Notes: generated by a model from the sequence alone, not told the origin. 64,000 nt of DNA from Actinomycetes bacterium (GCA_023402505.1 JAEYGD010000367.1:3870-67869), one strand, 5' to 3'; counted from the first letter of the stretch, positions 4,512-60,757 are shown. Made by a program: numbers and translations.

Positions 4512-4554
4512 CACCCCCAAACCGGGCTTTGTGAGCCCTGGCGAACACTTGCCG
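4512..4554. repeat. 43-bp inverted repeat, left copy
   Basis: CACCCCCAAACCGGGCTTTGTGAGCCCTGGCGAACACTTGCCG. It is the reverse complement of 6834-6876 with a single mismatch. Confidence 0.9.
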
Positions 4555-4899
4555 AACTCACAGCCGCTCACAGCGCTCGACCCGGCACTGGCTTGTCCGG
4601 ATTCCCATTGCTGTCCCGTGCCGGTCGAAGTGATCCAGTGCCAATGCATCTGATCCGACCGTCGGGGATGGATCACTTTCGTTGACGACACCGAGGTCAG
4701 GGGTCTCCGCCCCTCCGCCGCGGCGCCGTATCTCGGATCAGTTCCACTGGCACACGACGTCGACGGTGGCGCCAATGAATCTGATCCGGGCAGGTCACAG
4801 GCACCACCTGCGGAACAGTTTCGCTGGCACAGGACAATTGCCTTGTCTGGTGCTCGCGACGCGACAGCCATCGGCAGCCGCCTACGGCGACCGGACTTG

Positions 4900-6792: not shown

Positions 6793-6876
6793 CTGTGAGC
6801 CCGACGCAGGGCCGTGTGAGCGACGTGTGAGCGCGGCAAGTGTTCGCCAGGGCTCACAAAGCGCGGTTTGGGGGTG
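6793..6876. repeat. three TGTGAGC repeats plus the right copy of the 43-bp inverted repeat (6834-6876)
   Basis: CTGTGAGC (6793) and the tandem CGTGTGAGCGA / CGTGTGAGCGC (6813-6834), followed by the reverse complement of 4512-4554. Confidence 0.85.
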
Positions 6877-7158
6877 CGGGACCTTTCGCGAGCCGTACCG
6901 CTCGCCGGTCCCGCCCGCCGCCGGGCGACACGAGGAACCGCGATCCGCGTGCCTCGGGTGCCGCGCCACGTTGATGCGCTGACACCACATTGATGACCGC
7001 AACCCACCCATGAGGGAGGAAGAGCTCCTCCCGGGGCTCACGCGGTTCGTGCGCTTCTTCACCTGCGCCCGGCGGCGGTCCCTTCGACCGCTTCGAGCAA
7101 TCGCCGCGCCCCGGGTCACGCCTTTCGGCGTCCGGGGTGCGGCGGGAGGTGAACCGCC

Positions 7159-42947: not shown

Positions 42948-42956
42948 GGAGAGGTC

Positions 42957-44210: not shown

Positions 44211-44872
44211 CGTTCATACGGCTGGAGCAAGCCGCTCTGACCTACCCCGGGCCGCCTCCGGTCCCGGCGCTACTGCCCACAAACCTCACGGTGGGTCGCG
44301 GCGAGTACGTCAGCATCGTGGGCCCGTCCGGTTCCGGCAAATCAACCCTGCTCAACGTGCTGGGCCTACTGGACCGCCCCACCGAAGGCAAATTCTTCCT
44401 GGACGGGGTCGACACCGGCGCACTCAGCGAGCGGGAGCGAACCGCCCTGCGGGGCCATCGAATAGGTTTCGTGTTCCAGGCATTCCACCTGCTTCCTCGG
44501 CGTACCGCAATGGAGAACGTCGCGCTTGCGCAGCTATACCGTGCAACACCCGCCCGTCAACGGCGCGAACAGGCCCGCGAGGCGCTCGAACGGGTGGGGC
44601 TGGGCCACCGGTTGAACGCCGAGCCGGCCCGGCTGTCCGGTGGTGAGCGCCAACGCGTGGCGATCGCCCGAGCGCTCGCCGCGCAGCCAGGTCTTCTCCT
44701 GTGCGACGAACCAACCGGAAACCTCGACAGCGCCAATGCCGCCACCGTCATGCAGCTGCTCGCCGAACTGTGGCACGACGGCATGACGATCCTGGTCATC
44801 ACGCACGACCCGACCGTGGCTGACCAGGCGCCACGCCGCATCGTCATCTCCGACGGCGTGGTGACCGGGTGA
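44207..44872 (+). CDS. ABC transporter ATP-binding protein (MacB/LolD-type)
   Basis: Walker A GPSGSGKSTLL, signature LSGGERQRVAIARAL, and Walker B LLLCDEPTGNLD. GTGA overlap start. Confidence 0.9.
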   Translation: MTFIRLEQAALTYPGPPPVPALLPTNLTVGRGEYVSIVGPSGSGKSTLLNVLGLLDRPTEGKFFLDGVDTGALSERERTALRGHRIGFVFQAFHLLPRRTAMENVALAQLYRATPARQRREQAREALERVGLGHRLNAEPARLSGGERQRVAIARALAAQPGLLLCDEPTGNLDSANAATVMQLLAELWHDGMTILVITHDPTVADQAPRRIVISDGVVTG

Positions 44873-46086
44873 AATCCGAGATCCGGCACTCCGACCTGCT
44901 CGGTGAGTCGCTTGCGGGAGTTCTTCAGCGTCCCGCACGAGCCATGCTTACCGCACTCGGCACGGTCCTCGGCATCGGGGCGTTCGTCGCTGTACTCGGG
45001 CTCACCACCAGCGCGACCGGCCAGATCAGCAAGCGGTTCACCACACTGGTCGCCACCGAAATCATGGTCGAGACGGCCATCGAAAGCGGCGGAGCAGACC
45101 CTACACAGCCTGTTGCCTTTCCCCGCGATGCTGCATCCCGAGTCATGCGGATCGACGGCACCACGCATGCCGGTGTCTTCTGGACCCTGGCAGAGTCGCA
45201 GACAGGGGGCATCGCCGGTCCGCTGTCCCCCGGTGAGACAGAAAGCCAGCAACAGGTGATTGCCGCAGATCCAGGCACGTTATTGGCCGCAGGGTCGCGG
45301 GTCCACGCGGGCCGGCTGTTCAACGACTTTCACGACCGACATGAGCAACGGGTCGTCGTTCTCGGTCATGCGGTCGCCGGCCGACTCGGAATCACTAACC
45401 TGGCTTACCACCCCGCAGTACTCATCGGTGATCAACCGTTCACGGTCATAGGCATCATCGACGACGTGAAACGCCGGCCAGAGCTGCTGCTGTCGGTGAT
45501 CATTCCCCGCCGTACCGCCGAATTGCTGTGGCCAGCGATGCCCGGCGAGCCCATCTCGCAGCAGATGCTCATCGAGACCAAGCTGGGAGCTGCCCAAAGG
45601 GTCGCAGAACAGCTACCCATCGCCCTCGATCCAACAGGGCGGAGCCAATTCAAGATTACCCCGCCTCCGGACCCGCGGGAACTGCGTGACAACGTCGACG
45701 CTGACCTCAGCACGCTGTTCATCGTGCTCGCCTCGGTTTGTCTGGTCATCGGTGCAGTAGGTATCGCGAACACCACGCTCGTCGCTGTGCTGGAAAGGAT
45801 TCCTGAGATCGGACTGCGGCGCGCCCTCGGGGCCCGCCCTGGACACATCGCCGCTCAATTCCTGACCGAAAGCTCAGCCCTAGGCACCCTCGGTGGGCTG
45901 ATAGGAACCAGTCTCGGGGTGGCGGTCGTGGTAACCGTAGCCGTAGTGCGCGACTGGACACCCATCCTGCAGCCTTGGACGGTGGTACCGGCCCCACTCG
46001 TTGGCACAGTCGTCGGTCTAGCTGCAGGCGTCTATCCCGCCTTACGAGCCGCGCGGATCGAACCGGTGGCGGCGCTGCAACGATAG
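44869..46086 (+). CDS. ABC transporter permease, FtsX/MacB-type
   Basis: N-terminal TM helix, a large extracytoplasmic domain, and a C-terminal FtsX-like 3-TM bundle with RIPEIGLRRALGARPGHI. Confidence 0.85.
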   Translation: MKSEIRHSDLLGESLAGVLQRPARAMLTALGTVLGIGAFVAVLGLTTSATGQISKRFTTLVATEIMVETAIESGGADPTQPVAFPRDAASRVMRIDGTTHAGVFWTLAESQTGGIAGPLSPGETESQQQVIAADPGTLLAAGSRVHAGRLFNDFHDRHEQRVVVLGHAVAGRLGITNLAYHPAVLIGDQPFTVIGIIDDVKRRPELLLSVIIPRRTAELLWPAMPGEPISQQMLIETKLGAAQRVAEQLPIALDPTGRSQFKITPPPDPRELRDNVDADLSTLFIVLASVCLVIGAVGIANTTLVAVLERIPEIGLRRALGARPGHIAAQFLTESSALGTLGGLIGTSLGVAVVVTVAVVRDWTPILQPWTVVPAPLVGTVVGLAAGVYPALRAARIEPVAALQR

Positions 46087-46419
46087 ACCAACGCACTCTG
46101 CCGGAGATTCTCGATGAACTCAACACCGAGTTCGGACGGGTGATCCCGCAGCATTGGGGTCCCCAGCATCAAACCGCTACCATCCGTCCCACGAAGCTAC
46201 GTGCCGGTGCGAAGGGTAAGCCTCCGTAGAGCGAGCAAAGGCGGCGGCATCATCACCGCCACCAGATCGCACCGGGTGCAGCTATAGCTGATACTCACGG
46301 TGACCGTCGGTCGGCGAGGAGGACGCCGCGCTCGCGGGCCTCGGTCACTCCCGCATGTACGTTCCGTTCCCCTCACGGCGGGTGACGATGGTTTCCTGGC
46401 TTGTTTCGACGCTTGACTA

Positions 46420-46870
46420 CGGCGAGGCGTCCGGCACCGGCTGACGGTCGTGGGCACCGCAGCAGTGTGCGCCGTGGTCGCCGGCTATTGCTCGTATACC
46501 GCGATCGCCGAATGGGTCGCCGACGTGCCGGCAACAACGGCTCTGGCCGTGGGCATGACCCCCGATCGGCGCCCATCGGAGGCGATGATCCGTCGGCTGT
46601 TGCAGGCCATGGACCCGCAGCTACTTACCGCGGCGATCGGCGTCTGGCTCGCCGGCCGGGCCACCGCCGCAACCCCGACGGCCGGCAGGGCCGTCGCCGT
46701 AGACGGAAAGACCCTGCGCGGCTCCCACACCACCGACACCGCCGCCCGGCACGCAACGCCGCCATCGGCGCACTACGGACCGCCGGCATCACCAACACCG
46801 CCTGCGCCAACCGGCACCACGCCCGGACAGCACCCGCCCGCAAAACTGGGGTCGACCCACCCGGCAAGGA
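46420..46870 (+). pseudogene. ISAs1-family transposase remnant (internally deleted, frameshifted)
   Basis: RGVRHRLTVVGTAAVCAVVAGYCSYTAIAEWV ... AVDGKTLRGS is an ISAs1 N-terminal signature. In another frame, AAIGALRTAGITNTACANRHHAR is a C-terminal signature. The DDE core is missing. Confidence 0.6.
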
Positions 46871-47060
46871 CGCGGACCGCACCGACGACACCGAGCCCGA
46901 TGAGTGACAGTGCCACCGGTAGGGCTGAGCCCGGCTCGGCAACGTAGATCGGCGGCACCCCAGGTGGCTGAGCGAGTAGACGCTCAGCCCACCCGTGGGT
47001 TTTCGAGCACGAAGCCGGCCCTTTTTGCGTTTTGTCGGCAGGCCGTCGTGCCTGTGGACG

Positions 47061-48563
47061 TCACTCGCTGCGGCTCGGGCGTCCTGCGTGGCCGGGCTGC
47101 CGACGGGTCCGCTTCCGCGCGATCCCCGGTCGTCGGGGGTAGTCCGGCGGTAGGTACCGGTAGACCGAACGCAGCGACTTGCCGATCCTCTCGGCGAGCA
47201 GTTCAGGGTCCAGGTTCGGCTCTTTGCGCAGCCAATAGGCCACTGCCTCCGCGGTTGTCTGCGGAATCTCCGAGTCCCCGTCGCCCACCTCGTCGTCGGC
47301 GTCATCGCCAGCACTGTCTTTGTCGTCCTCGCTCCCGCCTGCCGGGTTCGCGACGGCCGGTCCGTCCGGCGGCGCAGCGTGGGGCGGACCAGCGCCGCGG
47401 CTGTCGGCAAGCTGCTGATGGCCGTTGTCGTTCGGGGCCGGCTCGGGGTCTCCCTCTGGCTCCGGTTCCGGCTCCTGCCGCTCATCGCCTGGCGTGTCTG
47501 CCGCCAATGCGGTGGGCGCTGGCGAGGAGGAGGCGGGCTCAGGTGCCGGTGGCGCTTCGGCGACGTCTTCTCGTCGGAGCCAGCGACGGCGGCGACGTGC
47601 ACTGTGAGCGGTCATGATTCGCTCTGGGGCGAGGTCTGCGGCCAGGATCGTGGTCAGCCCGTTGTAGTCGGCGGTGGCCGCGAGGCGGGCGGCGATCTCG
47701 TCCAGGTCGTACACCTGCACGGCGATGTCGGCGGTGGTCGAGTCCATCGTGGCTCTGATCTTGCGGTGGAGCACCTTGGCGATCGCGGCGTCGCGGCGTT
47801 GGCGGGCGATCGCGTCGCGGGCCGCGGTCAGGGACTCGTACAGGTCGAGACTGTCGGCCTTGGCGATGGACCGCGCCCGGGCGGTGACGACGGGGTGGCA
47901 GATCCAGTGGGCGAACACCTCGTAGGAGGGGGGTGCGGGTGGCAGGCCCCCGGTGGCGCGCAGCCGGTCGCGGCGCTGGTTGCCGGCGTGCATCAACCAG
48001 ACGAGGTAGCCGAGGGCGGACATGCCCGCGTAGAAGCCGCCGACCAGGGGGTCGGGGTGGGCGGCCCAGTTGAAGGCCACGGCCGCGGCGGCGATCGCGG
48101 CGGACAGGAGGCGGGACACCATGGCCTGTTCGCCGAGCCGGCGTCGCACGTCGGCGTTGGCCATCACGACCACGCCGCCGAGTTCCAGCGCCGCGACGGC
48201 CGGGACCGCGACGAGCACCGGGACGCCCAGCGTTTCGACGGCGCCGGTGACTTGTCCGACGAGGGCGACCAGCAGCACCAGGACGTAGAACGCCTGGCGC
48301 ATCCAGGCGGCGCGCCGGACCGCGGTGGCCAGGTCGGCATCCAGCGCGTCGCGCGTCGTCGGGGACGAGCCATGCCGACGCGCCGACCGGACCTGACGGC
48401 CGCTGCCCGGCGTCGTGCCGGGGGCGAGGACGGTTGCCGGCGGCGGCCACACGGCGCCGTTGCGGCCGTTGTTTGCCGGCTGCGGGACGTCGCCGCCGGG
48501 TGTGGGCTGATCGTGCCGGTTGTCGCGACCCGCTTCGGGCGCCGTCGGAGGGTGCGGCGTCAT
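47061..48563 (-). CDS. DUF2637-like membrane protein with acidic/P-rich tail and C-terminal HTH-like segment
   Basis: ATG at 48563 overlaps the upstream stop (ATGA). Four TM helices (YVLVLLVALVG, VLVAVPAVAALELGGVV, LLSAAIAAAAVAF, FYAGMSALGYLVWL) fit the DUF2637 pattern. Confidence 0.7.
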   Translation of the reverse strand: MTPHPPTAPEAGRDNRHDQPTPGGDVPQPANNGRNGAVWPPPATVLAPGTTPGSGRQVRSARRHGSSPTTRDALDADLATAVRRAAWMRQAFYVLVLLVALVGQVTGAVETLGVPVLVAVPAVAALELGGVVVMANADVRRRLGEQAMVSRLLSAAIAAAAVAFNWAAHPDPLVGGFYAGMSALGYLVWLMHAGNQRRDRLRATGGLPPAPPSYEVFAHWICHPVVTARARSIAKADSLDLYESLTAARDAIARQRRDAAIAKVLHRKIRATMDSTTADIAVQVYDLDEIAARLAATADYNGLTTILAADLAPERIMTAHSARRRRRWLRREDVAEAPPAPEPASSSPAPTALAADTPGDERQEPEPEPEGDPEPAPNDNGHQQLADSRGAGPPHAAPPDGPAVANPAGGSEDDKDSAGDDADDEVGDGDSEIPQTTAEAVAYWLRKEPNLDPELLAERIGKSLRSVYRYLPPDYPRRPGIARKRTRRQPGHAGRPSRSE

Positions 48564-51418
48564 GGGTGTTGCCTGCCGTCTCGGGGATCGGGCTTTCCGG
48601 TCGGGCGTTGCTGTCGCAGGCCGGTGATGAGTCGGTCGGCGAGTTTGATGGTTTCCTTGCTGGGCTCGGCGTCGATCTCGTCGAGCCGGCGGGTGAGTGT
48701 CCGGCGCAGGGTGCGGATCTGCTCGGAGTGTCCCAGTGCGGCGTGGGCGCGCATCGCTTGCTGGTAGAGGGCCTCGGCGTACGGGTCGTGGCGGATCGCG
48801 GCCTCGAGGACGGCCAGGGCTCGTGCCGGGTCGGCGGTCGCGGCGGCGAGAGCGAGGTGGGCGTCGAGGGCTTGGCGGCGGATCCCCTCGCGGTGCGCCT
48901 CGATCCATTCGTAGTCGAAGCCGTCGGCGAGTGCGCCGTCGTATGCGTCGACCGCGCGTTGCAGCGCGGCGGTCCGGTCGGCGTGGGTGGTGGCGCGCTC
49001 GGCGTCGCGCAGCGCGTCGCGCATGCGCCACAGGTCCGTGTCGAGGGCGTCTCGGTTGAGGGAGTAGCGGCGTGACGGGTGGGTGAGGTAGGTGGCGGGC
49101 CCCCCGGTGCGGGCGAGGGCCTTGCGCAGGGCGGACACGTAGGTGTGCAGGCGGTGCGGCGCCTTCGCCGCTGGGGCGTCGGGGAGCAGGTCGTCGAGGA
49201 TGTCGTCCTGTGCGGCGTCGCCGTCGTGGACGACGAGGTAGACCAGCAGTTCGAGGGCTTTCGCCCGCAGCGGCAGGGTCGTGTCCATGTCCAGGATGCG
49301 GGCGCCGCCGAGGACCCGCACCGCGACGCGTCCGCCGGGAGGAGCCGACTGGTTGTTGCCCGCCTGCGGTTCTTCGACGGCCGGATCGCGCGAGTGTGAG
49401 ACGACGAGAGCGGAGTCCGCGGGGGTCGGCTCGTCGTCGGGCAGCGGCGTGTCCGGCTCGCCGTCTTCGGCGTGGTCGACCTCGTCAACAGCGACAGTGC
49501 CGGCTGGGGTCGGTTGTGGGTCCTGGCCGGTGGCAGGGCGGGGGGTTTCGGTCGGTGCGGGGGGCCGGTGCTCGCCGGTGTGCGCTTCGGCGAGTGTGGT
49601 GAGCACACCGATCGTCTCGGCGGGGGTGAGGACGCTCAGGCGGCCGATGTCGGCGGGGTGCGTCCCGTGGCGGGTTTCCCCTGCGGCGGGGGCGGTGGTG
49701 CCGTCGGTGTCGACGACGACGGCGTTCCCGTCTGGCCAGGCGCCGAGCAGGATGCCGTGGATGTCGAGGCGCTGTCCCTGGGCGAGCAGCGTGGCGACGC
49801 GGGCGCGCTCGTGCGCGGCGGTGGCATCGGCGATGAGCACCATCGGCGGCAGGGGCTCGGCCGTCGGGTCGGCGTCCCGCACGCCGGCGACGGTGTCGAC
49901 CTCGTAGTCGAAGCACACCCGGGTGCGACGCAGCGTCTCGTCCTCGAGCATCGCGAGGGCGTCGGTGAGCCCGCCGGTGACGGTCAGCCGCGGCGTGTCC
50001 GGCACGCCTACCGCGGCAGCACCCAGCAGCGCCACCAGGGCGCCCGAGGGGATGACGACCCGGCTGCGCCCGTTCGGCTCGTCCAGGCCGCCGGAGGCGA
50101 GGGCGGACACCAGAAAGCCTCGTGCTGCCGCTTCGGCGCCCGGTCCGGTCAACCCCAGTCCGAAGGGTGGCCACACCGCGATCAGAGGGCTGGCCAGCGC
50201 GGGCGTGACTGGCGCTGGCACCTGCGTGGCCACGATGTCGGACTCGTCGTCAGGTGCTGCGGTGCCGCTGGCGGCCTGGTCCCGTACGGGCAGGAGCGCG
50301 GCTTCGTGGGGGTCCTGGCGGCCGGCGGCGCCGCGCAGGCCACGGTGGATGCGTCCTACGACGCGGGGCATCGGGGCCATGGCCGGGTCGTCGAGGCAGG
50401 GCAGGGCCGAGGGCGCGCGGGGCACGTAGCGGCGCCGCCGGTGAGCCCAGACCAACGCGACCGCGGCGGCGATGGCGCAGGCCAGGCCCTCGTCGACCCA
50501 GCTGCCGCCCGGTAACCCCACGCCGCGGGAGGCATCCTCGCTCGGGCGATGGGCGTCGGCATCGGCCTGACCGGCGGACTGCTGCGCAGGCCTGCTCGGC
50601 GCGGTCGGGCTGTCGACGCCGGCTGCGGATTCCGGGTCGGTCGCCCCCGGGGTGGGTGCTGCGGCCGGACGCGTCGGCGTCGTCTGCCCGCCCGGCCCGG
50701 TGTCGCCGCCCGGCGCGGTGTCGGTGGGCGGGCGGGGCGTGGACGGTGCGGTGACGGCGGGGTCGGTGGGCAGGTGGAGGGTCCAGCCGGGGTAGATCAG
50801 GTCCGGGTCGCGCAGGGTGCCGCCGACGCGGGGGAAGCGGGCGCCGCGGTTGAGGGCGTAGATCTCCGGCCACCGGTCGGCGTCGCCGAGGGTCCGCTCG
50901 GCGATCCGGCACAGGCTGTCCCCGCGGCGCACGGTGTAGGTAGATGCCGCGGGCGCGGCCGGTCGAGCGTCCTGGGCCTCTCGGGATGCTGCCGCCGGGG
51001 TGGGGGTGGCTGTTTCGTCTTTCGTGATCAGGTCGTCGCCTGTGGTGGTGACCGGGGCGGCGTGGGCGGTGGCGCCTGTGGCGGTGGTGACGGCGGTTGC
51101 GCCGAGCAACGCCGCCGTGAGGCTCTGGATCGGGCCGGGAAGGCGAAGCGCGACCGACCAGCGCCACCGGCGTGCCAGTGCGCGGTAGACGTGGGTGAGG
51201 GCGGAGGTGACCAGCAGCAGCCACAGCGCCGCCGCCGCGGCGACGGCGAGGGCGGTGACGAAACCGACGCCCATCGGTTGAGCGATCCACCGGCGGACGG
51301 CGTCCGGTGCGGGCAGCGCCGGCGCCCAGGCGCCGGTGGCCGCGAGAACGGCGGGGACGGCGGCCGTGGACGAGACGCTCGTGGCGATTGCCAACACGCG
51401 TGCGGTTCGGGACGTCAA
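48560..51418 (-). CDS. membrane-anchored LysM + SARP-type (OmpR-wHTH + BTAD) regulator
   Basis: Probable TTG start at 51418, preceded by GGGAGG. N-terminal TM helices. LysM motif YTVRRGDSLCRIAE ... IYPGWTLHLP. A further TM helix, then RVLGGARI ... LELLVYLV (wHTH) and a BTAD (DTDLWRM ... AYDGALADGF ... DPYAEALYQQAMRAHAALG). The track ATG at 51544 lies inside a tandem repeat. Confidence 0.75.
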   Translation of the reverse strand: MTSRTARVLAIATSVSSTAAVPAVLAATGAWAPALPAPDAVRRWIAQPMGVGFVTALAVAAAAALWLLLVTSALTHVYRALARRWRWSVALRLPGPIQSLTAALLGATAVTTATGATAHAAPVTTTGDDLITKDETATPTPAAASREAQDARPAAPAASTYTVRRGDSLCRIAERTLGDADRWPEIYALNRGARFPRVGGTLRDPDLIYPGWTLHLPTDPAVTAPSTPRPPTDTAPGGDTGPGGQTTPTRPAAAPTPGATDPESAAGVDSPTAPSRPAQQSAGQADADAHRPSEDASRGVGLPGGSWVDEGLACAIAAAVALVWAHRRRRYVPRAPSALPCLDDPAMAPMPRVVGRIHRGLRGAAGRQDPHEAALLPVRDQAASGTAAPDDESDIVATQVPAPVTPALASPLIAVWPPFGLGLTGPGAEAAARGFLVSALASGGLDEPNGRSRVVIPSGALVALLGAAAVGVPDTPRLTVTGGLTDALAMLEDETLRRTRVCFDYEVDTVAGVRDADPTAEPLPPMVLIADATAAHERARVATLLAQGQRLDIHGILLGAWPDGNAVVVDTDGTTAPAAGETRHGTHPADIGRLSVLTPAETIGVLTTLAEAHTGEHRPPAPTETPRPATGQDPQPTPAGTVAVDEVDHAEDGEPDTPLPDDEPTPADSALVVSHSRDPAVEEPQAGNNQSAPPGGRVAVRVLGGARILDMDTTLPLRAKALELLVYLVVHDGDAAQDDILDDLLPDAPAAKAPHRLHTYVSALRKALARTGGPATYLTHPSRRYSLNRDALDTDLWRMRDALRDAERATTHADRTAALQRAVDAYDGALADGFDYEWIEAHREGIRRQALDAHLALAAATADPARALAVLEAAIRHDPYAEALYQQAMRAHAALGHSEQIRTLRRTLTRRLDEIDAEPSKETIKLADRLITGLRQQRPTGKPDPRDGRQHP

Positions 51419-51538
51419 CCTGGCCTCCCTCGATCGTCCGGTCCGCAACGCGTGCGCGGCGCGGACGGGCGGCGGTGGACAGTGCCGTGACGCTATGACC
51501 GCCGGCGCGGTCGCGGGGCGAGATGCGGCCTGACAGCA

Positions 51539-51568
51539 CCTCACACGACCTCACACGACCTCACACCC
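51539..51568. repeat. tandem 10-bp repeat (CCTCACACGA x2 plus partial third)
   Basis: Read directly from the sequence. On the minus strand it reads GTGTGAGGTC GTGTGAGGTC GTGTGAGG, about 120 bp upstream of the probable start of the LysM-SARP gene. Confidence 0.85.
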
Positions 51569-51709
51569 CCAGGTCAGTGCCATGACGGGTGTCGGCAGAG
51601 GAGCGGGCGGTCGACGGAGGTGTCGGGGGAGACCCATGCCGCAGGGGAGACGAGCCGTCGCTGGACAGAAGCGGCGACGACGGCGCCCGTAGCCGCCGCC
51701 GACCGGTCG

Positions 51710-53782
51710 CTATCGGCGGGAGGCGGGGGCGTCGCGCATATTCGTGGCGGTCGTGGCCGCGTCTGCGTCCGGGCGCAGGCCTGCCTGCGTGAGGCGGCGG
51801 GCGTAGCCGTCGCGCAGCTCGTGGGCCGCGTCGTGCTCGCCGAGCGCGACGAGGGTGTTCACCGCGCGGGTGGTCAACTCGGCGTTGTAGGGGTCGACGC
51901 GGATCGCGGCCTGCAGCAGCGCGATGGCGCGGTGGGGGTCGGGGGTGGTGTCGGCGAGGGCCACATAGGCGTCGATCACGTGCCGGCGGATGGCTTCGCG
52001 GACAGGGCCGAGCCAGGGCCAGGCGCGCCCGGCGGCGAGGTCGTCAGGGTAGGCGTCGATCACGGCCTGCCAGGCGATGGTGGTGTTGGTGACGGCGGTG
52101 GCCGCGTGTCGAACCGCGTCGTAAAGGCGCCACAGGTCGACGTCGATGTGGGTGGGGTTGAGGCGGTAGCGGTCGTCGGCGTGGTCGATGACGTTCAGCC
52201 CGGACGCGGTTCGGATGACGCCGCGGAGTTCGCTGAGGGTGGTGTACAGCCGGCTGGTGAGGGACTGCCGGGGGACGCCGGGCCACATGGCGTCGATCAA
52301 CGGCCGGGTCTCTGCGCCGTCGGGGTGGGCGGCCAGATACACGAGGACCTGCAGGGCGGCGGTACGCCGGACGGTCACGGCTCGCCCGTCGACGAGCAGA
52401 GCCGGCTCGCCCAGCACGCGCAGTTCCAGCCGTCGGCCGGCAGCGGCGGACCGTGCGCGAGGGCTGCGGCGGGACGGCTGCCGGGGTACTCGCCAACCCG
52501 ATGTCGCCTGGTCGATCGAGGTGACCGGCGTGGCGTCGGGCGGTGTCGGTTCGGGGTGGGCGATCACAGTGAGCAGGTCGGTGGCGGCGATCCGGTCGAG
52601 GACGCACCATCGTGGCCCGGACCAGTCGGGGCGGCGCGGGTCGTGCAGGTGGCCCCCTGGATCGGCCTGCCATGTCGGCCCGGCAGGCCAGCGGCCCAGC
52701 AGGACAACCACGCCGCCGCCCGGCGCCACCGCATCCGCCAGGGCCGCCACGTCGCGCCGGTCGCCGTCGTCGATGAGCAGAACCACTGTCGGGCCACCAC
52801 CGGCGACGGCCGGACCGGCCGGGCGCGGGCCGGAGTCGTCACGCGCCCGGACCGACCGGCCGGCGGATTCCGCAATCCGCGTTGCTTCGTCGATGGTGTC
52901 CACGACGGTCAGCTGCGGCAGGCGCCGCCCAAGGGTCTCCGCGTGGGGGCCGAGGAGTCTGGTCAGGGCTGCCCTCGTGGTGACCAGTGACACCGCCGGC
53001 TGACGTTGCCCGGCCAGCAGCACGGTGACCAGAAGGCCCCGTCCGACGGCCAGAGCGCCCGGCCCGGTGATCCCCACACCGGTGGCCGGGAGGACGTCCC
53101 TGAGGGCGGGTATGCCCGCCGGGGAGGCCGGAGCAGCAACCGGGGCGGGCGCGTCGGCGAGGGCGGCCTGCACGGCGGCGACAGTCGGGGGCAGCGGGGC
53201 CAGATCGGGATCCTCGCGCGCGGACTGTCGGGGCGGGTGAGGCCGGTAGGCGCGGCGGCGGCGCAGCCATACCAGGGCCGCGGCGGCGGCGACGTGCTCG
53301 GCGACGTCACGGGGCAGCCATCCCGCCGGGACGGTGATCCCGTCGTCCGCCGACACACCTGCGTCACGGGTCGTGGGGTCGTCGAGGGTTCCCGCCGTCG
53401 CCGGCTGCGGTGGTTGTGGCGGCGCCGCGGCGACCGCGTTGGTCGTGACGCCGAGGACGGCGGCGCCCGCCATCCCGCTGGCGGTCGCCTGCAGCGGTGT
53501 GGGCAGCGGCAGGCGCCGCAACCAGCGTGCCGTGGCGCGGACGCGGGTGAGGACCCGGACCGTGACCGTGTAGGCGAGCACCAGCCACAGCAGCCAGGCC
53601 GCGACGGTCAGCGCGGCGGTGAGGGTCTGCTCGGTCAGCGGCTGCCGCACCCACTCCCGCATCTGCTCCCCGGACGGCCGCCCACCCATCGGCGGGCCGA
53701 CCAGGGACAGCAGCACCAGTGGCGGCCCGGCCAGGAGCGCGAGGACGACCAGCAGCGACATCAGCTGCCTCGGCCACCGCAC
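51710..53782 (-). CDS. membrane-anchored SARP-type (wHTH + BTAD) regulator, paralog of 48560-51418 without LysM
   Basis: The TM layout matches its paralog. C-terminal LRVLGEPALLVDGRAV ... LQVLVYLAAHP ... DVDLWRL ... DPYNAELTTRAVNTLVALG. The start is either the GTG at 53782 or the ATG at 53761. The track start at 53896 would overlap the upstream gene by 112 nt. Confidence 0.7.
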   Translation of the reverse strand: MRWPRQLMSLLVVLALLAGPPLVLLSLVGPPMGGRPSGEQMREWVRQPLTEQTLTAALTVAAWLLWLVLAYTVTVRVLTRVRATARWLRRLPLPTPLQATASGMAGAAVLGVTTNAVAAAPPQPPQPATAGTLDDPTTRDAGVSADDGITVPAGWLPRDVAEHVAAAAALVWLRRRRAYRPHPPRQSAREDPDLAPLPPTVAAVQAALADAPAPVAAPASPAGIPALRDVLPATGVGITGPGALAVGRGLLVTVLLAGQRQPAVSLVTTRAALTRLLGPHAETLGRRLPQLTVVDTIDEATRIAESAGRSVRARDDSGPRPAGPAVAGGGPTVVLLIDDGDRRDVAALADAVAPGGGVVVLLGRWPAGPTWQADPGGHLHDPRRPDWSGPRWCVLDRIAATDLLTVIAHPEPTPPDATPVTSIDQATSGWRVPRQPSRRSPRARSAAAGRRLELRVLGEPALLVDGRAVTVRRTAALQVLVYLAAHPDGAETRPLIDAMWPGVPRQSLTSRLYTTLSELRGVIRTASGLNVIDHADDRYRLNPTHIDVDLWRLYDAVRHAATAVTNTTIAWQAVIDAYPDDLAAGRAWPWLGPVREAIRRHVIDAYVALADTTPDPHRAIALLQAAIRVDPYNAELTTRAVNTLVALGEHDAAHELRDGYARRLTQAGLRPDADAATTATNMRDAPASRR

Positions 53783-53784
53783 TC

Positions 53785-55701
53785 CTACCCACCTCCACCC
53801 GGCGGCATGCCGGCCGGCAGCATCACCGAGGTCTGTCCGGCGGGCGTGGGTGGAGCGGGGCGGATGACGCGGGTCCACAACCGGGACGCCCACCACACCG
53901 CGACAGCGACGGCGTAGGTGACGCCGAGGATGCCGGCGGCCTGGTCATTGACGATCGCCGCGGTGATCACCGCAAGGGGAGCGGCGAGGATGAGACGGAA
54001 CACCAGCGGCGTGACCAACGCCATGACCACCCCGACACCCAGCAGCAGCCCACCGAGCCGACCCGCGATGTCGATCCACAGCACCATGTCAGGCCACCGT
54101 TCGGCGGTCAGCGAGTACTGGACCAACCCCATGCCGATCGCGGCCGTCACGACCGAGCCGGTCGGGGCGGCCAGCAGCGCCGACCAGCCGCCGTGCGGGA
54201 CCCGCCACTGCCGGGCGGCCACCACCGCCATCGCCACCGCCATCACGGCGATCGGGCTGATCGGCCACAACGCCCAACTCAGAAACCGGCCCACCGGCTG
54301 GCCGAAATACTGGCTGTACACCACCGCGTACAGGCCGGCGATCGCCGTGCCGAGGGACACCGCCGCGAGGATGCCGACGCTGACCTTCCCACCCTCGGTG
54401 CGCATGTTCGGGGTGGGGCTGCGGGCCGCGATCAGCGAGCCGAGCACAGTGCCGGCCGCGAGGCACGCCATCAGCGCCATCACGGCGGCCATCGCGAACT
54501 CGCCCCAGTTCAGGTCCACCCAGTAGTGCACGTTGAGCGTGTTGTGCCGCTCCGCGGTCAGCAGGCACTGCCACGACAGCGCCAACGAGGCGAAACCCGG
54601 CACCGCGATCGCGACGGCCCGCCGCACCGGCGGCACCGGCACCTCCACCCGATCCTCGGCGCCTAGGTCGACCGCACCGGCGTCCGCAGCGCCCAGAGCA
54701 GCCGCGAACCGAGGCTCGGCAACGATCGTGGGACTGACACCCACGTGCTCGACGACCAGCACGCCCAACTGAGGCAGGTGTGCGCCGCCGCCGACGCAGT
54801 AGACACCAGCAATGTCGGCGGCCGTCAGCTCCGCGGCGGCGATCGCCTCCTGGATCAGCTGCGCGACCCGCTCCAGGACGGGGCGGGCGACCTCGTCGAG
54901 CATCCCGCTGTTCGCGACGACCGGCGCCTGGCCGGCCAGCGGCACCGTGACGACCGGATGGGCGGTCAAGGACTCCTTCGCGGTACGAACGCTCTCCGCC
55001 ACCACCCACCGCTCCGCCTCATCGCCGGGCATCCCCTCACCGCCGGTGAAAGCGACGGCCAAGGCTTGGTCGATGGCCTGGCCGCCGGCCCTCGAGTCGT
55101 CGAGGGTCGCCAGCACCTCGAAACCCGCCGGCCCTCGGCGCAGCACCGTCACCTCGGCGCCCGCGCCCACGTCGACAACGACGATGAACGCCCCGACCGG
55201 TAGCTGCAGACCGGTGGCCAGCAGGCGCCCGGCGACCGCCACCGGGGCCTCCACCAGACGCGGCTGCGGCAACCCCGCCCGGTGAGCGACCTGCCGCATC
55301 CAGGTACGCCGCCTCGGCCCCCAGCCCGCCGGCACCACCACCCGCACATCCCGCACTGGGCCACCGGCCACCCGCTGCGCCTCGACCGCGGCCCTGCGCA
55401 GCGGCGCCGCCGCCAACTCCAGCGCCTCCACCGCGACGCCCTCAACGGTGAGATCGTCATCGGCCGGACGGCGAGGACTCGGCACGAGCCGGGTCGGCTC
55501 CCTCGCGGCAGCCTGGCGCGCCTGCTGCCCCGTCCACACCTCACCATCAGCGGCCACATAGACAGCACTGGGCAACTCCACCAGGCCGTCGAACGACAAC
55601 GGGACCGAGCTGCCATCAGGCCAAGCGAGGACCGCCTTGGTGGTGGCCGTGCCGCAATCAATCGACAGCCGCGCCTCCCCCGCCCGCATACGCATAGTCA
55701 A
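53785..55701 (-). CDS. Hsp70/actin-fold ATPase-like protein with C-terminal polytopic membrane domain
   Basis: N-terminal LSIDCGTATTKAVLAW (phosphate-1 DxGT), VVVDVGAGAEVTVL (phosphate-2) and VYCVGGGAHLP (adenosine motif), followed by at least 6 hydrophobic helices. Confidence 0.75.
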   Translation of the reverse strand: MTMRMRAGEARLSIDCGTATTKAVLAWPDGSSVPLSFDGLVELPSAVYVAADGEVWTGQQARQAAAREPTRLVPSPRRPADDDLTVEGVAVEALELAAAPLRRAAVEAQRVAGGPVRDVRVVVPAGWGPRRRTWMRQVAHRAGLPQPRLVEAPVAVAGRLLATGLQLPVGAFIVVVDVGAGAEVTVLRRGPAGFEVLATLDDSRAGGQAIDQALAVAFTGGEGMPGDEAERWVVAESVRTAKESLTAHPVVTVPLAGQAPVVANSGMLDEVARPVLERVAQLIQEAIAAAELTAADIAGVYCVGGGAHLPQLGVLVVEHVGVSPTIVAEPRFAAALGAADAGAVDLGAEDRVEVPVPPVRRAVAIAVPGFASLALSWQCLLTAERHNTLNVHYWVDLNWGEFAMAAVMALMACLAAGTVLGSLIAARSPTPNMRTEGGKVSVGILAAVSLGTAIAGLYAVVYSQYFGQPVGRFLSWALWPISPIAVMAVAMAVVAARQWRVPHGGWSALLAAPTGSVVTAAIGMGLVQYSLTAERWPDMVLWIDIAGRLGGLLLGVGVVMALVTPLVFRLILAAPLAVITAAIVNDQAAGILGVTYAVAVAVWWASRLWTRVIRPAPPTPAGQTSVMLPAGMPPGGGG

Positions 55702-56008
55702 ACATGAGGATCACACTCACGTCACCCACCGATCACTCACGGAGAGTAGAGACCGCGGGCCGAAAGCCAGATGAGCCAGTCCGAAGTCGCGCCCCTGGCA
55801 CCGTGCTGCAGGTCTATGTGTGGGCGGGCGTGGGAAGCGGTGCCCGGCCTCGGGGGAAGCTCGGTGGCGACTGAACCGAGCCATGCGACGCGACGAGGAC
55901 CCCTGCACTCGTGGCAGCCCTGCCCAGAGCATGCAACCCCCGCCGGGCTCCACCACGAGCCGCCCGCACGATAAGCGGACAGTCGCTGATGTCCGCCGCG
56001 GGAACCTA

Positions 56009-57232
56009 GTGCCGCAGCAGGGAATGTTTGCCCTGTGACGACGCGGCGTGCGGGTGCTGGTTCGGACGGTGCGGTGTCGCCAGGCTGTCCGGGTGGCAGA
56101 GCGGGTACGGGTCCGGGATATCGGCGACGACGAAGGGCAGCGGCTGCGGCGGATCGTCCGTAGAGGTACTGGGTCGGTGGTGACCTGGCGGCGGGCTCAG
56201 ATGGTGTTGCTGTCCGCGCAGGGCATGTCGGTGGGGAAGATCGCGGAGGTGACGTTCACCAGCGCGGATCGGGTCCGAGACGTGATCGGCAATTTCAACG
56301 CCGACGGCTTCGATTCGCTTTACCCGAAGTACAAAGGTGGCCGGCCGAGAACGTTCACGCTGCCGGAGCGGCGTGAGATTAAGAAGATCGCGAAGTCCAA
56401 GCCGGCCGAGCATGGCTTGCCGCTCTCGACCTGGAGTCTGGCCAAGCTGGCCGACTTCCTGGTCGCTGAGGGGGTGGTCGACGACATCAGCCACGAGGGC
56501 CTGCGGGTCCTGCTCCGCGAGGAGGGCGTGTCGTTTCAACGCGTGAAACCTGGAAGATCTCCCGCGACCCGGACTACGCCGCCAAGAAGGCCCGGGTCGA
56601 GCACCTCTACGCGATCGCCGACGGTGAGGTCGTACCGGAGGACGACGAGCCCGAGGTCGTGTTCTGCCTCGACGAGTTCGGTCCCTTGAATCTCCAACCT
56701 CATCCGGGGCGGCAGTGGGCCGAGCGCGGTGGACGGCACAAGGACCCTGACCGGCAGCCGCGGCCCCGCCGGCGGGCGACCTACACCCGACCGCATGGGA
56801 TCAGGCACCTGTTCACCGCCTACGACCTGAGCAAGGACAAGCTCTACGGCCACATCAAGCCGACGAAGACCCGCACACGGTTCCTGGAGTTCTGCCGCTA
56901 CCTGCGCAGCCTGCACCCGCCGCAGACCCGGATCGCGATCGTGCTCGACAACTACTCCCCACACCTGAGCACGAAGAAGGACACCCGGGTCGGCGACTGG
57001 GCCGCGGCCAACAACGTCGAGCTCGCCTACACACCCACCAACAGCTCCTGGCTCAACCGCATCGAGGCCCAGTTCACCGCCCTGCGCTACTTCACCCTCG
57101 ACGGCACCGACCACACCAGCCACAAGCAACAGGCCAGCATGATCCGCCGCTACATCATCTGGCGGAACAAAACGCCGCCGACGAATGCCTACGCGAGGTA
57201 GTCAACAGGGCGAACATTGCCTGATGCGGCAC
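56009..57232 (+). mobile_element. IS630-family insertion sequence, 1224 bp
   Basis: Inverted repeats are GTGCCGCAGCAGGGAATGTTTGCCCTG (56009-) and CAGGGCGAACATTGCCTGATGCGGCAC (-57232). A TA dinucleotide flanks both sides (56007-56008 and 57233-57234). Confidence 0.85.
56048..57201 (+). CDS. IS630-family transposase, split into two frames at AAA (56546-56548)
   Basis: Frame 1 ends ...GVSFQRVK. Frame -1 continues TWKISRDPDYAAKKARVEHLY ... DEFGPLNLQP ... VLDNYSPH ... NSSWLNRIEAQF (DDE). This is either a -1 slip or a 1-nt deletion in an A run. Confidence 0.8.
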
Positions 57233-57305: not shown

Positions 57306-57983
57306 CTAATCGGTTGAGCTGGCTTGCCGGCGGCGCAGGGTCCGGATCCAACCCTGGGCGGTGTGCCTGGGCACGTTGTAGTGGTCGGCGACAGCCGCCA
57401 CGCTGCCGGCCTGCTGGTACACCGACTCGAGATCACTCGGGGACCGCCGGTACACCCGACCCGCGCCTGGGGACGCCTCGCCCTTCGCGGTCTGCTTGGT
57501 GGCTTTCCGCCCCGCGTTGGTGGCCTTGGCGCCTGTGGCTTTCCGTCCACGCGACCGGGTCGCGCTGTCGGACGGTGCTTTCGCCCGTGACGCCTGCTTG
57601 GGCACAGCGACCGCGGTCGGCTCGCTCAGCACCGGAGTAGTCGTAGCCGGTTGGTCAGCGGTGGACGTGGTTACGGTGACAGCCTGGCCCGCCTCGGTCT
57701 CGGCGACGGGCTCCTCGTCAACGGATACGCCAGCGGGCGCCTCGTCGGCCGGTGCGGCAGGCGACACGGTTAGCGCCTGCTGCCCGCCGACGGCAGGCGT
57801 GACCGCCTTCAGCAGCAGATCCAGATCGATCGCGGGAATCTGGCCCGCGGTCAGCCCGTCCCCCTCACCGGCGCGTACCACCAGCTCGGTGATCCGCGCG
57901 GTCGCGCCGTTCAACTCGACTCTCACGGTTGTGGTCGCCCGGCTGGGATCGTCCGCGGCGATGCTGATGGTGTAGGAACTCAC
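57306..57983 (-). CDS. hypothetical DNA-binding protein (C-terminal HTH)
   Basis: C-terminal SVAAVADHYNVPRHTAQGWIRTLRR is HTH-like. The middle is low-complexity and rich in A/T/K. Confidence 0.55.
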   Translation of the reverse strand: MSSYTISIAADDPSRATTTVRVELNGATARITELVVRAGEGDGLTAGQIPAIDLDLLLKAVTPAVGGQQALTVSPAAPADEAPAGVSVDEEPVAETEAGQAVTVTTSTADQPATTTPVLSEPTAVAVPKQASRAKAPSDSATRSRGRKATGAKATNAGRKATKQTAKGEASPGAGRVYRRSPSDLESVYQQAGSVAAVADHYNVPRHTAQGWIRTLRRRQASSTD

Positions 57984-60753: not shown

Positions 60754-60757
60754 CGAC

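What the first reader, a model, noticed from the sequence alone, without database searches (positions are those of the whole stretch)
47061..55701. Minus-strand cluster: Hsp70-like membrane ATPase + two membrane-anchored SARP (wHTH-BTAD) paralogs, one carrying LysM, + DUF2637 protein
**Gene content, same orientation**
- (i) An actin/Hsp70-fold ATPase fused to at least 6 TM helices.
- (ii) A roughly 690-aa protein with N-terminal TM helices, a P/A-rich spacer, another TM helix, a central alpha/beta-like domain, then an OmpR-type wHTH and BTAD.
- (iii) A roughly 950-aa paralog with the same layout plus a LysM domain in the predicted extracytoplasmic loop.
- (iv) A DUF2637 4-TM protein coupled by an ATGA overlap.

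**Interpretation**
- SARPs are normally soluble. C-terminal DNA-binding domains tethered by N-terminal TM segments with a peptidoglycan-binding sensor loop suggest a membrane-tethered one-component pathway that reads cell-wall status.
- The partner is an Hsp70-like membrane protein of unknown role.
- The promoter region of (iii) carries the same TGTGAG repeats as the T4SS control region, hinting that the cluster belongs to the conjugative element's regulon.
Basis: partly seen in the sequence, partly recalled or inferred. Interest (0 to 1): 0.65.

Follow-up and report, generated by a model that had tools for sequence, protein, structure and literature searches.

The report
Membrane-anchored SARP regulator gene cluster
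A Micromonospora mobile element carries two uncharacterised membrane-anchored SARP-type DNA-binding proteins, one with an outward-facing cell-wall-binding domain, plus an Hsp70-like membrane ATPase and a membrane HTH protein, behind two strongly conserved promoter elements; their role is untested.

Summary
The four minus-strand genes are real and form two coupled pairs, A-B and C-D.

- **A:** an Hsp70 nucleotide-binding domain followed by about 8 TM helices.
- **B and C:** paralogs. Each has N-terminal TM segments, a cytoplasmic central domain, and a C-terminal SARP domain.
- **Central domain:** it has the FtsK/EccC/TcpA P-loop fold, but the Walker A lysine is lost.
- **SARP domain of C:** confirmed by structure prediction (matches AfsR and EmbR).
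- **LysM of C:** real, and by topology it must lie outside the cell.
- **D:** not demonstrably DUF2637. It is a 4-TM protein whose HTH tail is shared with the DUF2637 proteins found at the same position in other loci.

New observations:
- Four 10-bp TGTGAGG repeats lie exactly 34 nt upstream of a TANNNT hexamer in front of C. This holds in 46 of 48 distinct relatives.
- A second invariant element abuts the start of A.
- Across 68 Micromonosporaceae loci, C-D is preceded either by A-B (42) or by a tad pilus operon (19), never by both.
- The SARP part of C and D are inherited together.

Best reading (about 0.45): these are membrane-tethered SARP activators that belong to a conjugative element. 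The link to the T4SS genes rests on this window alone. The family is uncharacterised.

The parts
53785..55689 (-). Gene A. Hsp70-like nucleotide-binding domain (about 54646-55674) fused to about 8 TM helices (about 53878-54624); no Hsp70 substrate-binding domain. The conserved start is ATG 55689; ATG 55695 and TTG 55701 are not conserved.
   Evidence: GC3 frame. Pfam HSP70 71 bits. DnaK NBD 7e-21 over residues 11-360, with the IDxGT, DxGxG and GGG motifs kept. Hydropathy. Start-codon conservation. Orthologs are named 'Hsp70 family protein'.
55696..55749 (-). Conserved element P_A directly upstream of A: GTGAGTGATcgGtGGGTGACGTGAgTGTGATCCTCATGTTTGACT, followed by 6-7 nt and then ATG. It is a candidate promoter/operator, possibly for a leaderless or short-leader mRNA.
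   Evidence: Near-invariant in 36 loci plus the window, while the sequence further upstream is unrelated. nhmmer gives one hit per locus, always in front of A, even where A-B is inverted.
51710..53782 (-). Gene B (690 aa). Paralog of C without LysM: TM segments, a short outer loop, TM4 followed by RRRR, an FtsK-like degenerate P-loop domain (about 52547-53125) and a SARP-like C-terminus (about 51743-52441). GTG start 2 nt after the A stop, preceded by GGAGG.
   Evidence: 4e-29 to C; orthologs annotated AfsR/SARP; some carry PF03704. Identity to the window co-varies with A (rho 0.90).
51526..51565 (-). P_C array: four tandem 10-bp units, TGTGAGGTCG TGTGAGGTCG TGTGAGGTGC TGTCAGGCCG.
   Evidence: TRF reports 2.9 copies at 100% match. 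nhmmer gives one hit per locus, upstream of C, in about 52 of 84 loci. Logo. A variant array, CGTGTGAnnn, occurs in Dactylosporangium.
51490..51495 (-). TAGCGT, a -10-like hexamer lying exactly 34 nt after the fourth repeat hexamer. This places the array at about -82 to -43.
   Evidence: A TANNNT hexamer sits at the identical 34-nt distance in 46 of 48 distinct upstream sequences, although the spacer itself is not conserved.
48560..51418 (-). Gene C (952 aa). Layout: TM1, TM2, a weak Ala/Thr-rich TM3 ending AHA|AP, LysM (50768-50941), a Pro-rich linker, TM4 (50444-50500) followed by RRRR, an FtsK/EccC-like pseudo-ATPase domain (49574-50176), a linker, and a SARP domain of wHTH plus BTAD (48599-49330).
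   Evidence: LysM 1.6e-8; 43; 48 and 51 (central domain pLDDT 87.5; EssC 1.6e-6, TcpA 1.3e-4, FtsK 1.9e-4, EccC 2.2e-4); 90 and 92 (SARP, AfsR/EmbR 1e-9).
47061..48563 (-). Gene D (500 aa). Its ATG overlaps the C stop (ATGA). It has four TM helices (about 47976-48302), a conserved helical cytoplasmic region, an acidic/Pro-rich linker and a C-terminal HTH (47136-47267).
   Evidence: no Pfam hit for the window protein; HTH_23 and Sigma70_r4_2 hits in homologs; the HTH is shared with DUF2637-type homologs, E 4e-20. Co-inherited with the SARP part of C (rho 0.92).
46966..47052 (-). Two stable hairpins just after the D stop; likely the end of the transcription unit.
   Evidence: RNA fold gives -55.7 kcal/mol and a z-score of -4.2. 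There is no T-run, so this is not a canonical intrinsic terminator.
6794..6880 (+). Phased TGTGAG units at 6794, 6815 and 6826, plus an inverted copy at 6853, about 180 nt upstream of the TrbL/VirB6-like gene. This is the right arm of a roughly 64-bp inverted repeat.
   Evidence: TrbL assignment.
4513..4576 (-). Left arm of the same inverted repeat, with two TGTGAG units 10 nt apart on the minus strand. The region 4500-5460 is dense in TGTGAG, TGTCAC and TGTCAG motifs.
56010..57232 (+). IS630-like insertion (DDE_3 transposase) about 320 nt upstream of A. It separates A from a 225-aa gene and a 5'-truncated DUF5954 gene that are contiguous with A in the closest relative.
   Evidence: DDE_3. (blastn and tblastn against L001).

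Best explanation
The region is a regulatory module of a Micromonosporaceae conjugative element, made of two translationally coupled gene pairs.

**Proteins**
- C is a membrane-tethered one-component activator, and B probably is too.
- The N-terminal TM segments hold each protein in the membrane.
- The LysM domain of C faces the cell wall.
- A cytoplasmic FtsK/EccC-like domain has lost its Walker A lysine. It serves as an oligomerisation or regulatory module.
- The C-terminal SARP domain (OmpR-type winged helix plus BTAD) binds direct repeats and recruits RNA polymerase.

**Target**
- The proposed target is the four in-phase 10-bp TGTGAGG repeats at about -82 to -43 of the C-D promoter. B, C, or both could bind there.
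- This would give B-dependent activation of C-D, or autoregulation by C.
- TGTGA-type motifs in front of A, and near the T4SS genes in this window, may be further targets.

**Partners**
- A is a nucleotide-binding Hsp70-like membrane protein and is the dedicated partner of B.
- D is a 4-TM protein with a cytoplasmic HTH and is the dedicated partner of the SARP domain of C.
- This resembles the ToxR-ToxS and TcpP-TcpH pairs.

**Shown versus inferred**
- Shown: the gene structure, domain folds, topology logic, conservation of both cis elements, synteny and co-inheritance.
- Inferred: DNA binding to the repeats, the nature of the signal, and the roles of A and D.
For: **Domains**
- SARP fold of C: BTAD passes the Pfam cut-off. 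The AF2 model (pLDDT 94) matches the AfsR SARP domain in transcription initiation complexes, and EmbR, at 1e-9 with TM 0.67-0.71.
- The recognition-helix region (KAPHRLHTYVSxLR in C, GRLYTTLSxLR in B) is nearly invariant across the family.

**Promoter of C**
- Four 10-bp direct repeats lie at a fixed 34 nt from a TANNNT hexamer in 46 of 48 distinct sequences.
- No -35 element is conserved between them. This is the layout expected of an activator-dependent promoter with head-to-tail OmpR-family binding.
- The array is present in 38 of 42 A+B loci; the other 4 were not hit by the array model, and the Dactylosporangium loci carry a variant array upstream of C. It is absent from all 19 loci where C is instead co-transcribed with a tad operon.

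**Topology**
- A single TM helix followed by RRRR lies between LysM and the cytoplasmic domains.

**Gene coupling**
- There is a 2-nt gap between A and B, and an ATGA overlap between C and D.
- Identity to the window co-varies between A and B (rho 0.90) and between the SARP part of C and D (rho 0.92). The SARP part is uncoupled from the rest of C.

**Context**
- The window carries TrbL/VirB6, a T4CP, a relaxase, NlpC/P60, DUF4314, and AAA_5 with VWA.
- The same backbone lies next to C-D in relatives.
- Phased TGTGAG pairs in the window occur at only three places. Two of them flank the region upstream of the TrbL gene.
Against: - No binding or expression data exist, and no RNA-seq run holds this strain.
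- Classical SARP boxes have 11-bp phasing and overlap the -35 region, ending 8 bp from the -10. Here the repeats have 10-bp phasing and lie further upstream.
- Tad-type loci carry nearly the same SARP-D module (83% identity) but show no repeat array within 10 kb. The array could therefore be the target of B, or of an unrelated factor, rather than of C.
- The two arrays near the T4SS genes have a different layout (two direct units plus one inverted unit). They were seen in this window only.
- The best PDB LysM relative is Kbp/YgaU, a cytoplasmic protein. Peptidoglycan binding is therefore not guaranteed by homology alone.
- Topology comes from hydropathy and the positive-inside rule, not from a dedicated predictor.
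Confidence: 0.45

Rival explanations
1. B, C and D are structural or DNA-tethering parts of an envelope-spanning machine rather than transcription factors. LysM anchors the complex to peptidoglycan. The FtsK/TcpA-like pseudo-ATPase docks onto the coupling protein or onto TadA. The wHTH and HTH domains hold element DNA at the membrane, much as Streptomyces TraB binds its clt repeats. The machine could be the conjugation apparatus or, in sister loci, the Tad pilus.
For: - The central domain resembles EssC/EccC, the pCW3 coupling protein TcpA, and FtsK.
- In 19 of 68 loci, C is the last gene of a tad operon made of SAF, TadA, TadB/C and TadE-like genes.
- The LysM profile also hits TsaP, a type IV pilus anchor.
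- Three of the four proteins combine membrane anchoring with a DNA-binding fold.
- C-D always lies next to the transfer backbone.
Against: - The Walker A lysine is lost in both B and C, so neither can be a motor.
- The window already has a separate T4CP.
- The repeat array sits at a fixed, in-phase distance from a -10-like hexamer in front of a gene. That is promoter geometry, not the geometry of an oriT or clt site.
- The closest structural relatives of the C-terminus are SARPs bound to RNA polymerase.
Confidence: 0.25
2. The conserved repeats are bound by a different regulator, either host-encoded or element-encoded. The SARP-like domains of B and C act on other targets, or mainly as TPR-like protein-interaction modules. 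The cluster then responds to envelope signals but does not control its own promoter.
For: - The array is absent from tad-type loci that carry nearly the same SARP-D module.
- TGTGA is also a half-site of CRP-family regulators (my own knowledge).
- The repeat geometry differs from that of classical SARP boxes.
Against: - The repeats are direct, not palindromic, and 10-bp phased. This fits OmpR-family winged helices rather than dimeric HTH proteins.
- Within 10 kb of C in 84 loci, the array occurs only in front of C.
- In the loci examined it co-occurs with B; none of the 19 tad-type loci, which all lack B, has it.
Confidence: 0.15
3. The cluster is accessory cargo unrelated to transfer, for example an anti-phage or stress module. 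It would be linked to the element only by position.
For: - The window carries other cargo and defence genes: ABC-3C-like CTD7 and DUF3732, several IS elements and an ABC transporter.
- A gives a weak PADLOC hit to PDC-M61B at 1.3e-5.
Against: - No PADLOC family matches B, C or D in a meaningful way.
- C-D keeps the same convergent position next to the AAA_5, VWA and DUF4314 backbone in most relatives of both locus types. The flanks on the other side vary.
Confidence: 0.07

Closest known systems
SARP family activators (AfsR, ActII-ORF4, DnrI, EmbR)
   Same: - The C-terminal 250 residues of C have the OmpR-type winged helix plus BTAD fold (Foldseek 1e-9, 24% identity to AfsR and EmbR; Pfam BTAD).
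- Tandem direct repeats lie upstream of a -10-like hexamer that lacks a -35 partner.
   Different: - Known SARPs are soluble, with the SARP domain at the N-terminus.
- Here it is at the C-terminus of a polytopic membrane protein, behind a LysM ectodomain and an FtsK-like pseudo-ATPase.
- The repeats are four units at 10-bp phasing, centred near -62. Classical boxes are two or three units at 11-bp phasing that overlap the -35.
ToxR-type membrane-bound one-component regulators with a co-encoded partner (ToxR-ToxS, TcpP-TcpH, CadC)
   Same: - An OmpR-family winged helix, membrane anchoring and an extracytoplasmic domain sit in one polypeptide.
- A translationally coupled membrane partner gene follows (C-D, ATGA overlap).
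   Different: - The domain order is reversed: sensor and TM segments first, DNA-binding domain last.
- The protein spans the membrane several times.
- It carries extra BTAD and FtsK-like domains.
- There is no sequence relationship outside the winged helix.
FtsK/SpoIIIE-family ATPases of secretion and conjugation (EccC/EssC D2-D3, TcpA of pCW3, Streptomyces TraB)
   Same: - N-terminal TM segments are followed by an FtsK-like P-loop fold.
- As in TraB and FtsK-gamma, a winged-helix DNA-binding domain lies at the C-terminus and short direct repeats lie nearby. The EccC D2-D3 domains are likewise poorly active regulatory modules. Both comparisons are from my own knowledge.
   Different: - Walker A reads GLTGPGAEAAARG in C and GITGPGALAVGRG in B, with no Lys-Ser/Thr.
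- There is only one such domain.
- The winged helix is of the OmpR/SARP type, not the gamma-domain type.
Hsp70/DnaK/HscA
   Same: A has the full actin-fold nucleotide-binding domain, with phosphate-1, phosphate-2 and adenosine motifs.
   Different: - There is no substrate-binding domain or lid. The NBD is followed by about 8 TM helices.
- The residue equivalent to DnaK Thr199 is Ala (GAGA in place of GGGT).
DUF2637 (PF10935) membrane proteins
   Same: - In 23 of 45 related loci, the gene after C is a DUF2637 protein carrying the same C-terminal HTH as D.
- Both types have about four TM helices.
   Different: - The window's D has no Pfam DUF2637 match.
- Profile-profile comparison does not align the membrane parts.

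Membership tests
SARP (OmpR-type wHTH + BTAD) | BTAD domain (PF03704) | tested here: met
   - C scores 39.3 bits against a cut-off of 22.1.
- 39 of 50 family representatives hit it.
- B itself gives only weak TPR_19, but some B orthologs carry PF03704.
SARP (OmpR-type wHTH + BTAD) | OmpR-type winged helix immediately N-terminal to the BTAD | tested here: met
   - Pfam Trans_reg_C is below its cut-off (17.1 against 26.2).
- The AF2 model (pLDDT 94) superposes on the whole SARP unit of AfsR (8k60, 8hvr) and of EmbR (2fez) over about 250 residues, at E 1e-9.
SARP (OmpR-type wHTH + BTAD) | Binds tandem direct repeats at the target promoter and activates transcription | not testable with these tools
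   Conserved direct repeats exist in front of C. Which protein binds them is unknown.
LysM (PF01476) | LysM domain sequence signature | tested here: met
   - The window protein is just below the Pfam cut-off (18.2 against 20.9).
- NCBIfam LysM PRK11198 matches at 1.6e-8.
- The family profile hits LysM structures at 1.6e-8 and 3.5e-8.
- 35 of 50 representatives hit Pfam LysM.
LysM (PF01476) | Extracytoplasmic location and peptidoglycan binding | tested here: inconclusive
   - Topology logic places LysM opposite the SARP domain: one TM helix followed by RRRR separates them.
- The best PDB relative, Kbp, is cytoplasmic.
Hsp70 | Actin-fold nucleotide-binding domain | tested here: met
   Pfam HSP70 71 bits. 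DnaK NBD 7e-21 over residues 11-360.
Hsp70 | Substrate-binding domain and lid | tested here: not met
   Alignments stop at about DnaK residue 370-390. About 8 hydrophobic helices follow instead.
FtsK/SpoIIIE/EccC/TcpA ATPases | RecA-like FtsK-type P-loop fold | tested here: met
   The AF2 model has pLDDT 87.5. Foldseek gives EssC 1.6e-6, TcpA 1.3e-4, FtsK 1.9e-4 and EccC 2.2e-4.
FtsK/SpoIIIE/EccC/TcpA ATPases | Walker A GxxGxGK[ST] | tested here: not met
   - C reads GLTGPGAEAAARG and B reads GITGPGALAVGRG.
- In the 137-sequence alignment (A3), only the third Gly of the GxxGxG motif (TGPG) and a downstream Arg-Gly are invariant. No Lys is present.
DUF2637 (PF10935) | Match to the family HMM | tested here: not met
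   - The window's D has no hit at E up to 0.1.
- hhalign against the DUF2637-type positional homologs aligns only the HTH tail.
ToxR-like membrane-bound one-component regulators | Winged helix, membrane span and extracytoplasmic domain in one chain | tested here: met
   The architecture of C. The domain order is reversed and the protein is polytopic, so this is an analogy of design, not homology.
Tad/Flp pilus operon component | Encoded within a tad operon (TadA, TadB/C, TadE-like genes) | tested here: not met
   The window has no tad genes. However, 19 of 68 related loci have C as the terminal gene of a tad operon.

The most novel reading that the evidence does not exclude
C-D is a previously undescribed type of switch. 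It is a polytopic SARP whose outward LysM domain and FtsK-like pseudo-ATPase couple an envelope machine to transcription of conjugation genes in mycelial actinomycetes. The machine is a Tad pilus in some elements and the Hsp70-like A-B pair in others. DNA transfer would then be induced by cell-wall or cell-contact cues.
Probability: 0.2. Interest if true: 0.8.

Novelty: new variant of a known kind. Interest (0 to 1): 0.62.

Why it matters
- **SARPs.** They are known as soluble pathway-specific activators of antibiotic biosynthesis. A widespread membrane-tethered form would extend what SARPs do and how they are controlled. The family spans hundreds of 50%-identity clusters, mostly in Micromonosporaceae. 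It combines a cell-wall-facing LysM with an inactivated FtsK/EccC-type domain.
- **Conjugation.** The strict alternation between a tad pilus operon and the Hsp70-like A-B pair upstream of C-D, on elements that carry T4SS genes, gives a concrete entry point to a poorly understood question: how T4SS-type conjugative elements of actinomycetes are regulated.
- **Testability.** The two invariant cis elements give ready-made probes for binding and reporter experiments.

Tried and rejected
**Searches that found nothing**
- Megablast of the region against PLSDB plasmids: no match.
- Sequencing runs: only marginal word sharing (0.16 at most) and no RNA-seq for this strain, so no transcript evidence.
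- Sigma-70 and terminator consensus scans: nothing useful in this high-GC DNA.
- PADLOC: no convincing defence family.
- Literature searches (DUF2637; BTAD + LysM + transmembrane; actinobacterial T4SS ICEs; SARP + FtsK; tad + SARP): no paper describes this family.

**Ideas tested and dropped**
- DUF2637 for D: rejected for the window protein.
- Periodic repeat arrays or TGTGA clusters in tad-type loci: none found.
- Telling B from C as the array binder by recognition-helix variation: both helices are nearly invariant, so this was uninformative.
- DUF5954 and the 225-aa gene upstream of A as further cluster members: rejected, because they are conserved in only a few loci.
- ORF 47539..49608 (689 aa) and plus-strand ORF 47379..48767: rejected as shadow frames by codon-position GC.

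Full report
**1. What is there**

The window has 63-76% G+C, and protein hits place it in Micromonospora. Codon-position GC picks out four minus-strand genes in 47061-55701 and exposes two overlapping long ORFs as shadow frames.

- Gene A runs from ATG 55689 to 53785. This ATG is the only start conserved among orthologs.
- Gene B starts at GTG 53782, 2 nt after the A stop and behind a GGAGG.
- Gene C starts at TTG 51418, behind GAGGGAGG and after a 291-nt gap.
- Gene D starts at ATG 48563 and overlaps the C stop (ATGA).
- Two stable hairpins follow D.

The unit is therefore two translationally coupled pairs, A-B and C-D.

**2. The proteins**

*Protein A.* A has a complete Hsp70 nucleotide-binding domain. 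Pfam scores 71 bits, and DnaK 2v7y matches at 7e-21 over residues 11-360 with the nucleotide-binding motifs kept. It has no substrate-binding domain; about eight hydrophobic helices follow instead.

*B and C as paralogs.* BLASTP gives 4e-29 and 31% identity over 630 residues.

*SARP domain of C.*
- BTAD passes the Pfam cut-off, while the winged helix and LysM fall just below theirs.
- A model of residues 695-952, built on a 137-sequence alignment, has pLDDT 94.
- It superposes on the SARP unit of AfsR in two transcription initiation complexes, and on EmbR, at about 1e-9.

The SARP assignment therefore holds.

*LysM.* The family profile hits LysM structures at 1.6e-8. Pfam LysM matches 35 of 50 family representatives.

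- It models with pLDDT 87.5.
- It matches EssC/EccC ATPase domains, the pCW3 coupling protein TcpA, and the FtsK motor (E 1.6e-6 to 5e-4).
- Its Walker A position reads GLTGPGAEAAARG in C and GITGPGALAVGRG in B, with no lysine.

It is therefore an FtsK-type pseudo-ATPase.

*Protein D.*
- D has four TM helices, a conserved helical region and a C-terminal HTH.
- Pfam does not recognise it as DUF2637.
- In 23 of 45 related loci, the gene at this position is a DUF2637 protein with the same HTH tail.
- Profile-profile comparison aligns only that tail (E 4e-20).

**3. Topology**

In C, the only hydrophobic segment between LysM and the cytoplasmic domains is TM4, and it is followed by RRRR. Between TM2 and TM3 lies an Arg-rich loop. 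Whichever way the N-terminal helices are counted, LysM lies on the opposite side of the membrane from the DNA-binding domain, that is, outside the cell.

B has the same layout with a loop of about 35 residues in place of LysM. This rests on hydropathy and the positive-inside rule, not on a dedicated predictor.

**4. Two conserved cis elements**

*P_C.*
- Upstream of C lie four tandem 10-bp units, TGTGAGGTCG TGTGAGGTCG TGTGAGGTGC TGTCAG.
- A model of this array finds exactly one copy per locus, always in front of C, in about 52 of 84 related loci.
- Dactylosporangium loci carry a variant, CGTGTGAnnn.
- In 46 of 48 distinct sequences, a TANNNT hexamer lies exactly 34 nt after the fourth unit, although the spacer is not conserved.
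- With that hexamer as the -10, the array spans about -82 to -43 and is in helical phase with it. No -35 element is conserved.

This is the layout of an activator-dependent promoter with head-to-tail binding of OmpR-family winged helices.

*P_A.* A second element, GTGAGTGATTGACAGGTGACGTGAATGTGATCCTCATGTTTGACT, ends 6-7 nt before the ATG of A. It is nearly invariant in 36 loci plus the window, and it stays in front of A even where A-B is inverted.

*Other arrays.* Phased TGTGAG pairs occur at three places in the window, against 0.01 expected. These are P_C and the two arms of an inverted repeat at 4513-4576 and 6815-6880. The right arm lies about 180 nt upstream of the TrbL/VirB6-like gene. Those arms have a different layout: two direct units plus one inverted unit. 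In the relatives, no phased pair occurs within 10 kb of C other than P_C itself.

**5. Context and distribution**

The window carries a T4SS-type transfer set:
- TrbL/VirB6, a coupling protein and a Replic_Relax relaxase;
- NlpC/P60, DUF4314, and AAA_5 with VWA_CoxE;
- IS elements and cargo.

The AAA_5/VWA/DUF4314 block lies convergent to C-D in most relatives. One scan of species-representative genomes gave 80 loci, all in Micromonosporaceae, often with several per genome.

Of 68 loci with at least 7 kb upstream:
- 42 have A+B;
- 19 have a tad pilus operon (SAF, a 260-aa gene, TadA, TadB/C, TadE-like) running directly into C;
- none has both.

A D-like gene follows C in 62 of 75 loci. The central domain defines a family of 703 clusters at 50% identity, mostly with the same LysM and SARP architecture. 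A few members come from outside the Micromonosporaceae.

**6. Mosaic structure**

The closest relative, a M. aurantiaca contig, is 94% identical in DNA from upstream of A to position 49548. That position lies inside C, at the linker before the SARP domain, and identity is lost beyond it.

Across loci, identity to the window behaves as follows:
- A co-varies with B (rho 0.90);
- the SARP part of C co-varies with D (rho 0.92);
- the SARP part is uncoupled from the rest of C (rho 0.17 and -0.21).

In a tree of the C-terminal halves, B is a separate deep clade, while C proteins from tad-type and A-B-type loci interleave. A-B and SARP-D therefore behave as two linked modules that are shuffled independently. 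Physical adjacency contributes to this. Even so, the recurrent break inside C points to a functional tie between the SARP domain and D.

**7. Interpretation**

The best-supported reading is that B and C are membrane-tethered SARP-type activators belonging to a conjugative element.
- B, C, or both bind the P_C repeats.
- A is the dedicated partner of B.
- D is the dedicated partner of the SARP domain of C.

I put this at about 0.45. Four points weigh against it:
- there are no binding or expression data;
- the geometry differs from that of classical SARP boxes;
- no array is seen in tad-type loci that carry almost the same SARP-D module;
- the T4SS link rests on one window.

The main rival, at about 0.25, is a structural or DNA-tethering role in the transfer or Tad apparatus. 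The FtsK/TcpA-like fold, the tad context and the number of membrane-anchored DNA-binding folds all suggest this. Against it stand the loss of Walker A, the separate coupling protein in the window, and the promoter-like geometry of the repeats.

**8. Novelty**

Databases name these proteins 'BTAD domain-containing putative transcriptional regulator', 'LysM peptidoglycan-binding domain-containing protein' and 'Hsp70 family protein'. I found no paper on them.

The following appear to be undescribed:
- the domain combination;
- the two cis elements;
- the alternation between a tad operon and A-B.

I rate this a new variant of a known kind, namely membrane-bound one-component regulators and SARPs.

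Noticed in passing
window 4513-4576 and 6815-6880; also 4500-5460: A roughly 64-bp inverted repeat flanks a 2.2-kb segment that holds gene 5419-6408 (no Pfam hit). The left part of the segment is unusually dense in TGTGAG, TGTCAC, TGTGAC and TGTCAG motifs. It could be a divergent operator pair or an invertible or iteron-like region.
   Followed up: partly
window 49548 (inside gene C): This is a recombination breakpoint relative to the closest relative, L001. DNA identity is 94% from 56010 to 49548 and is lost beyond. The SARP domain and D therefore come from a different lineage than A, B and the N-terminal two thirds of C.
   Followed up: yes
window 56010-57232; 57309-57983; 58214-58861: An IS630-like element (DDE_3) is inserted between A and a 225-aa gene. 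The DUF5954 gene beyond it lacks its first 114 codons, because homology to L001 stops at 58863. In M. globbae (L002), a DUF5954 fragment is called as one ORF with the Hsp70-like gene.
   Followed up: partly
window 59072-62710: A CTD7 domain protein of ABC-three-component (ABC-3C) systems and a DUF3732 protein lie here. Together they look like a defence-type module next to the cluster.
   Followed up: no
window 39800-47000: This lower-GC stretch (63-65%) holds a DDE_Tnp_4 transposase, a PG_binding_1 protein, a MacB-type ABC transporter pair and transposase remnants. It replaces the DUF4262, 122-aa, 180-aa and 203-aa genes that lie between D and VWA_CoxE in most relatives.
   Followed up: partly
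window 24608-26572 and 27304-28341: A TniQ-domain protein and a GGDEF diguanylate cyclase are encoded among the transfer genes of the element.
   Followed up: no
gene C residues 80-120 (window about 51060-51180): The weakly hydrophobic, highly conserved third segment (RLPGP...LLGATAVTTA..AHA|AP) looks like an internal signal peptide with an AXA cleavage site. If it is cleaved, the first two TM helices would be separated from the rest of C.
   Followed up: no
L024 and L028 (Salinispora pacifica CNR114); L008, L022, L030 (Micromonospora sp. DT4): Single genomes carry two or three copies of the C-containing locus, including two separate tad-type loci in one Salinispora genome. This fits with the tad-type loci also being on mobile elements.
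   Followed up: partly
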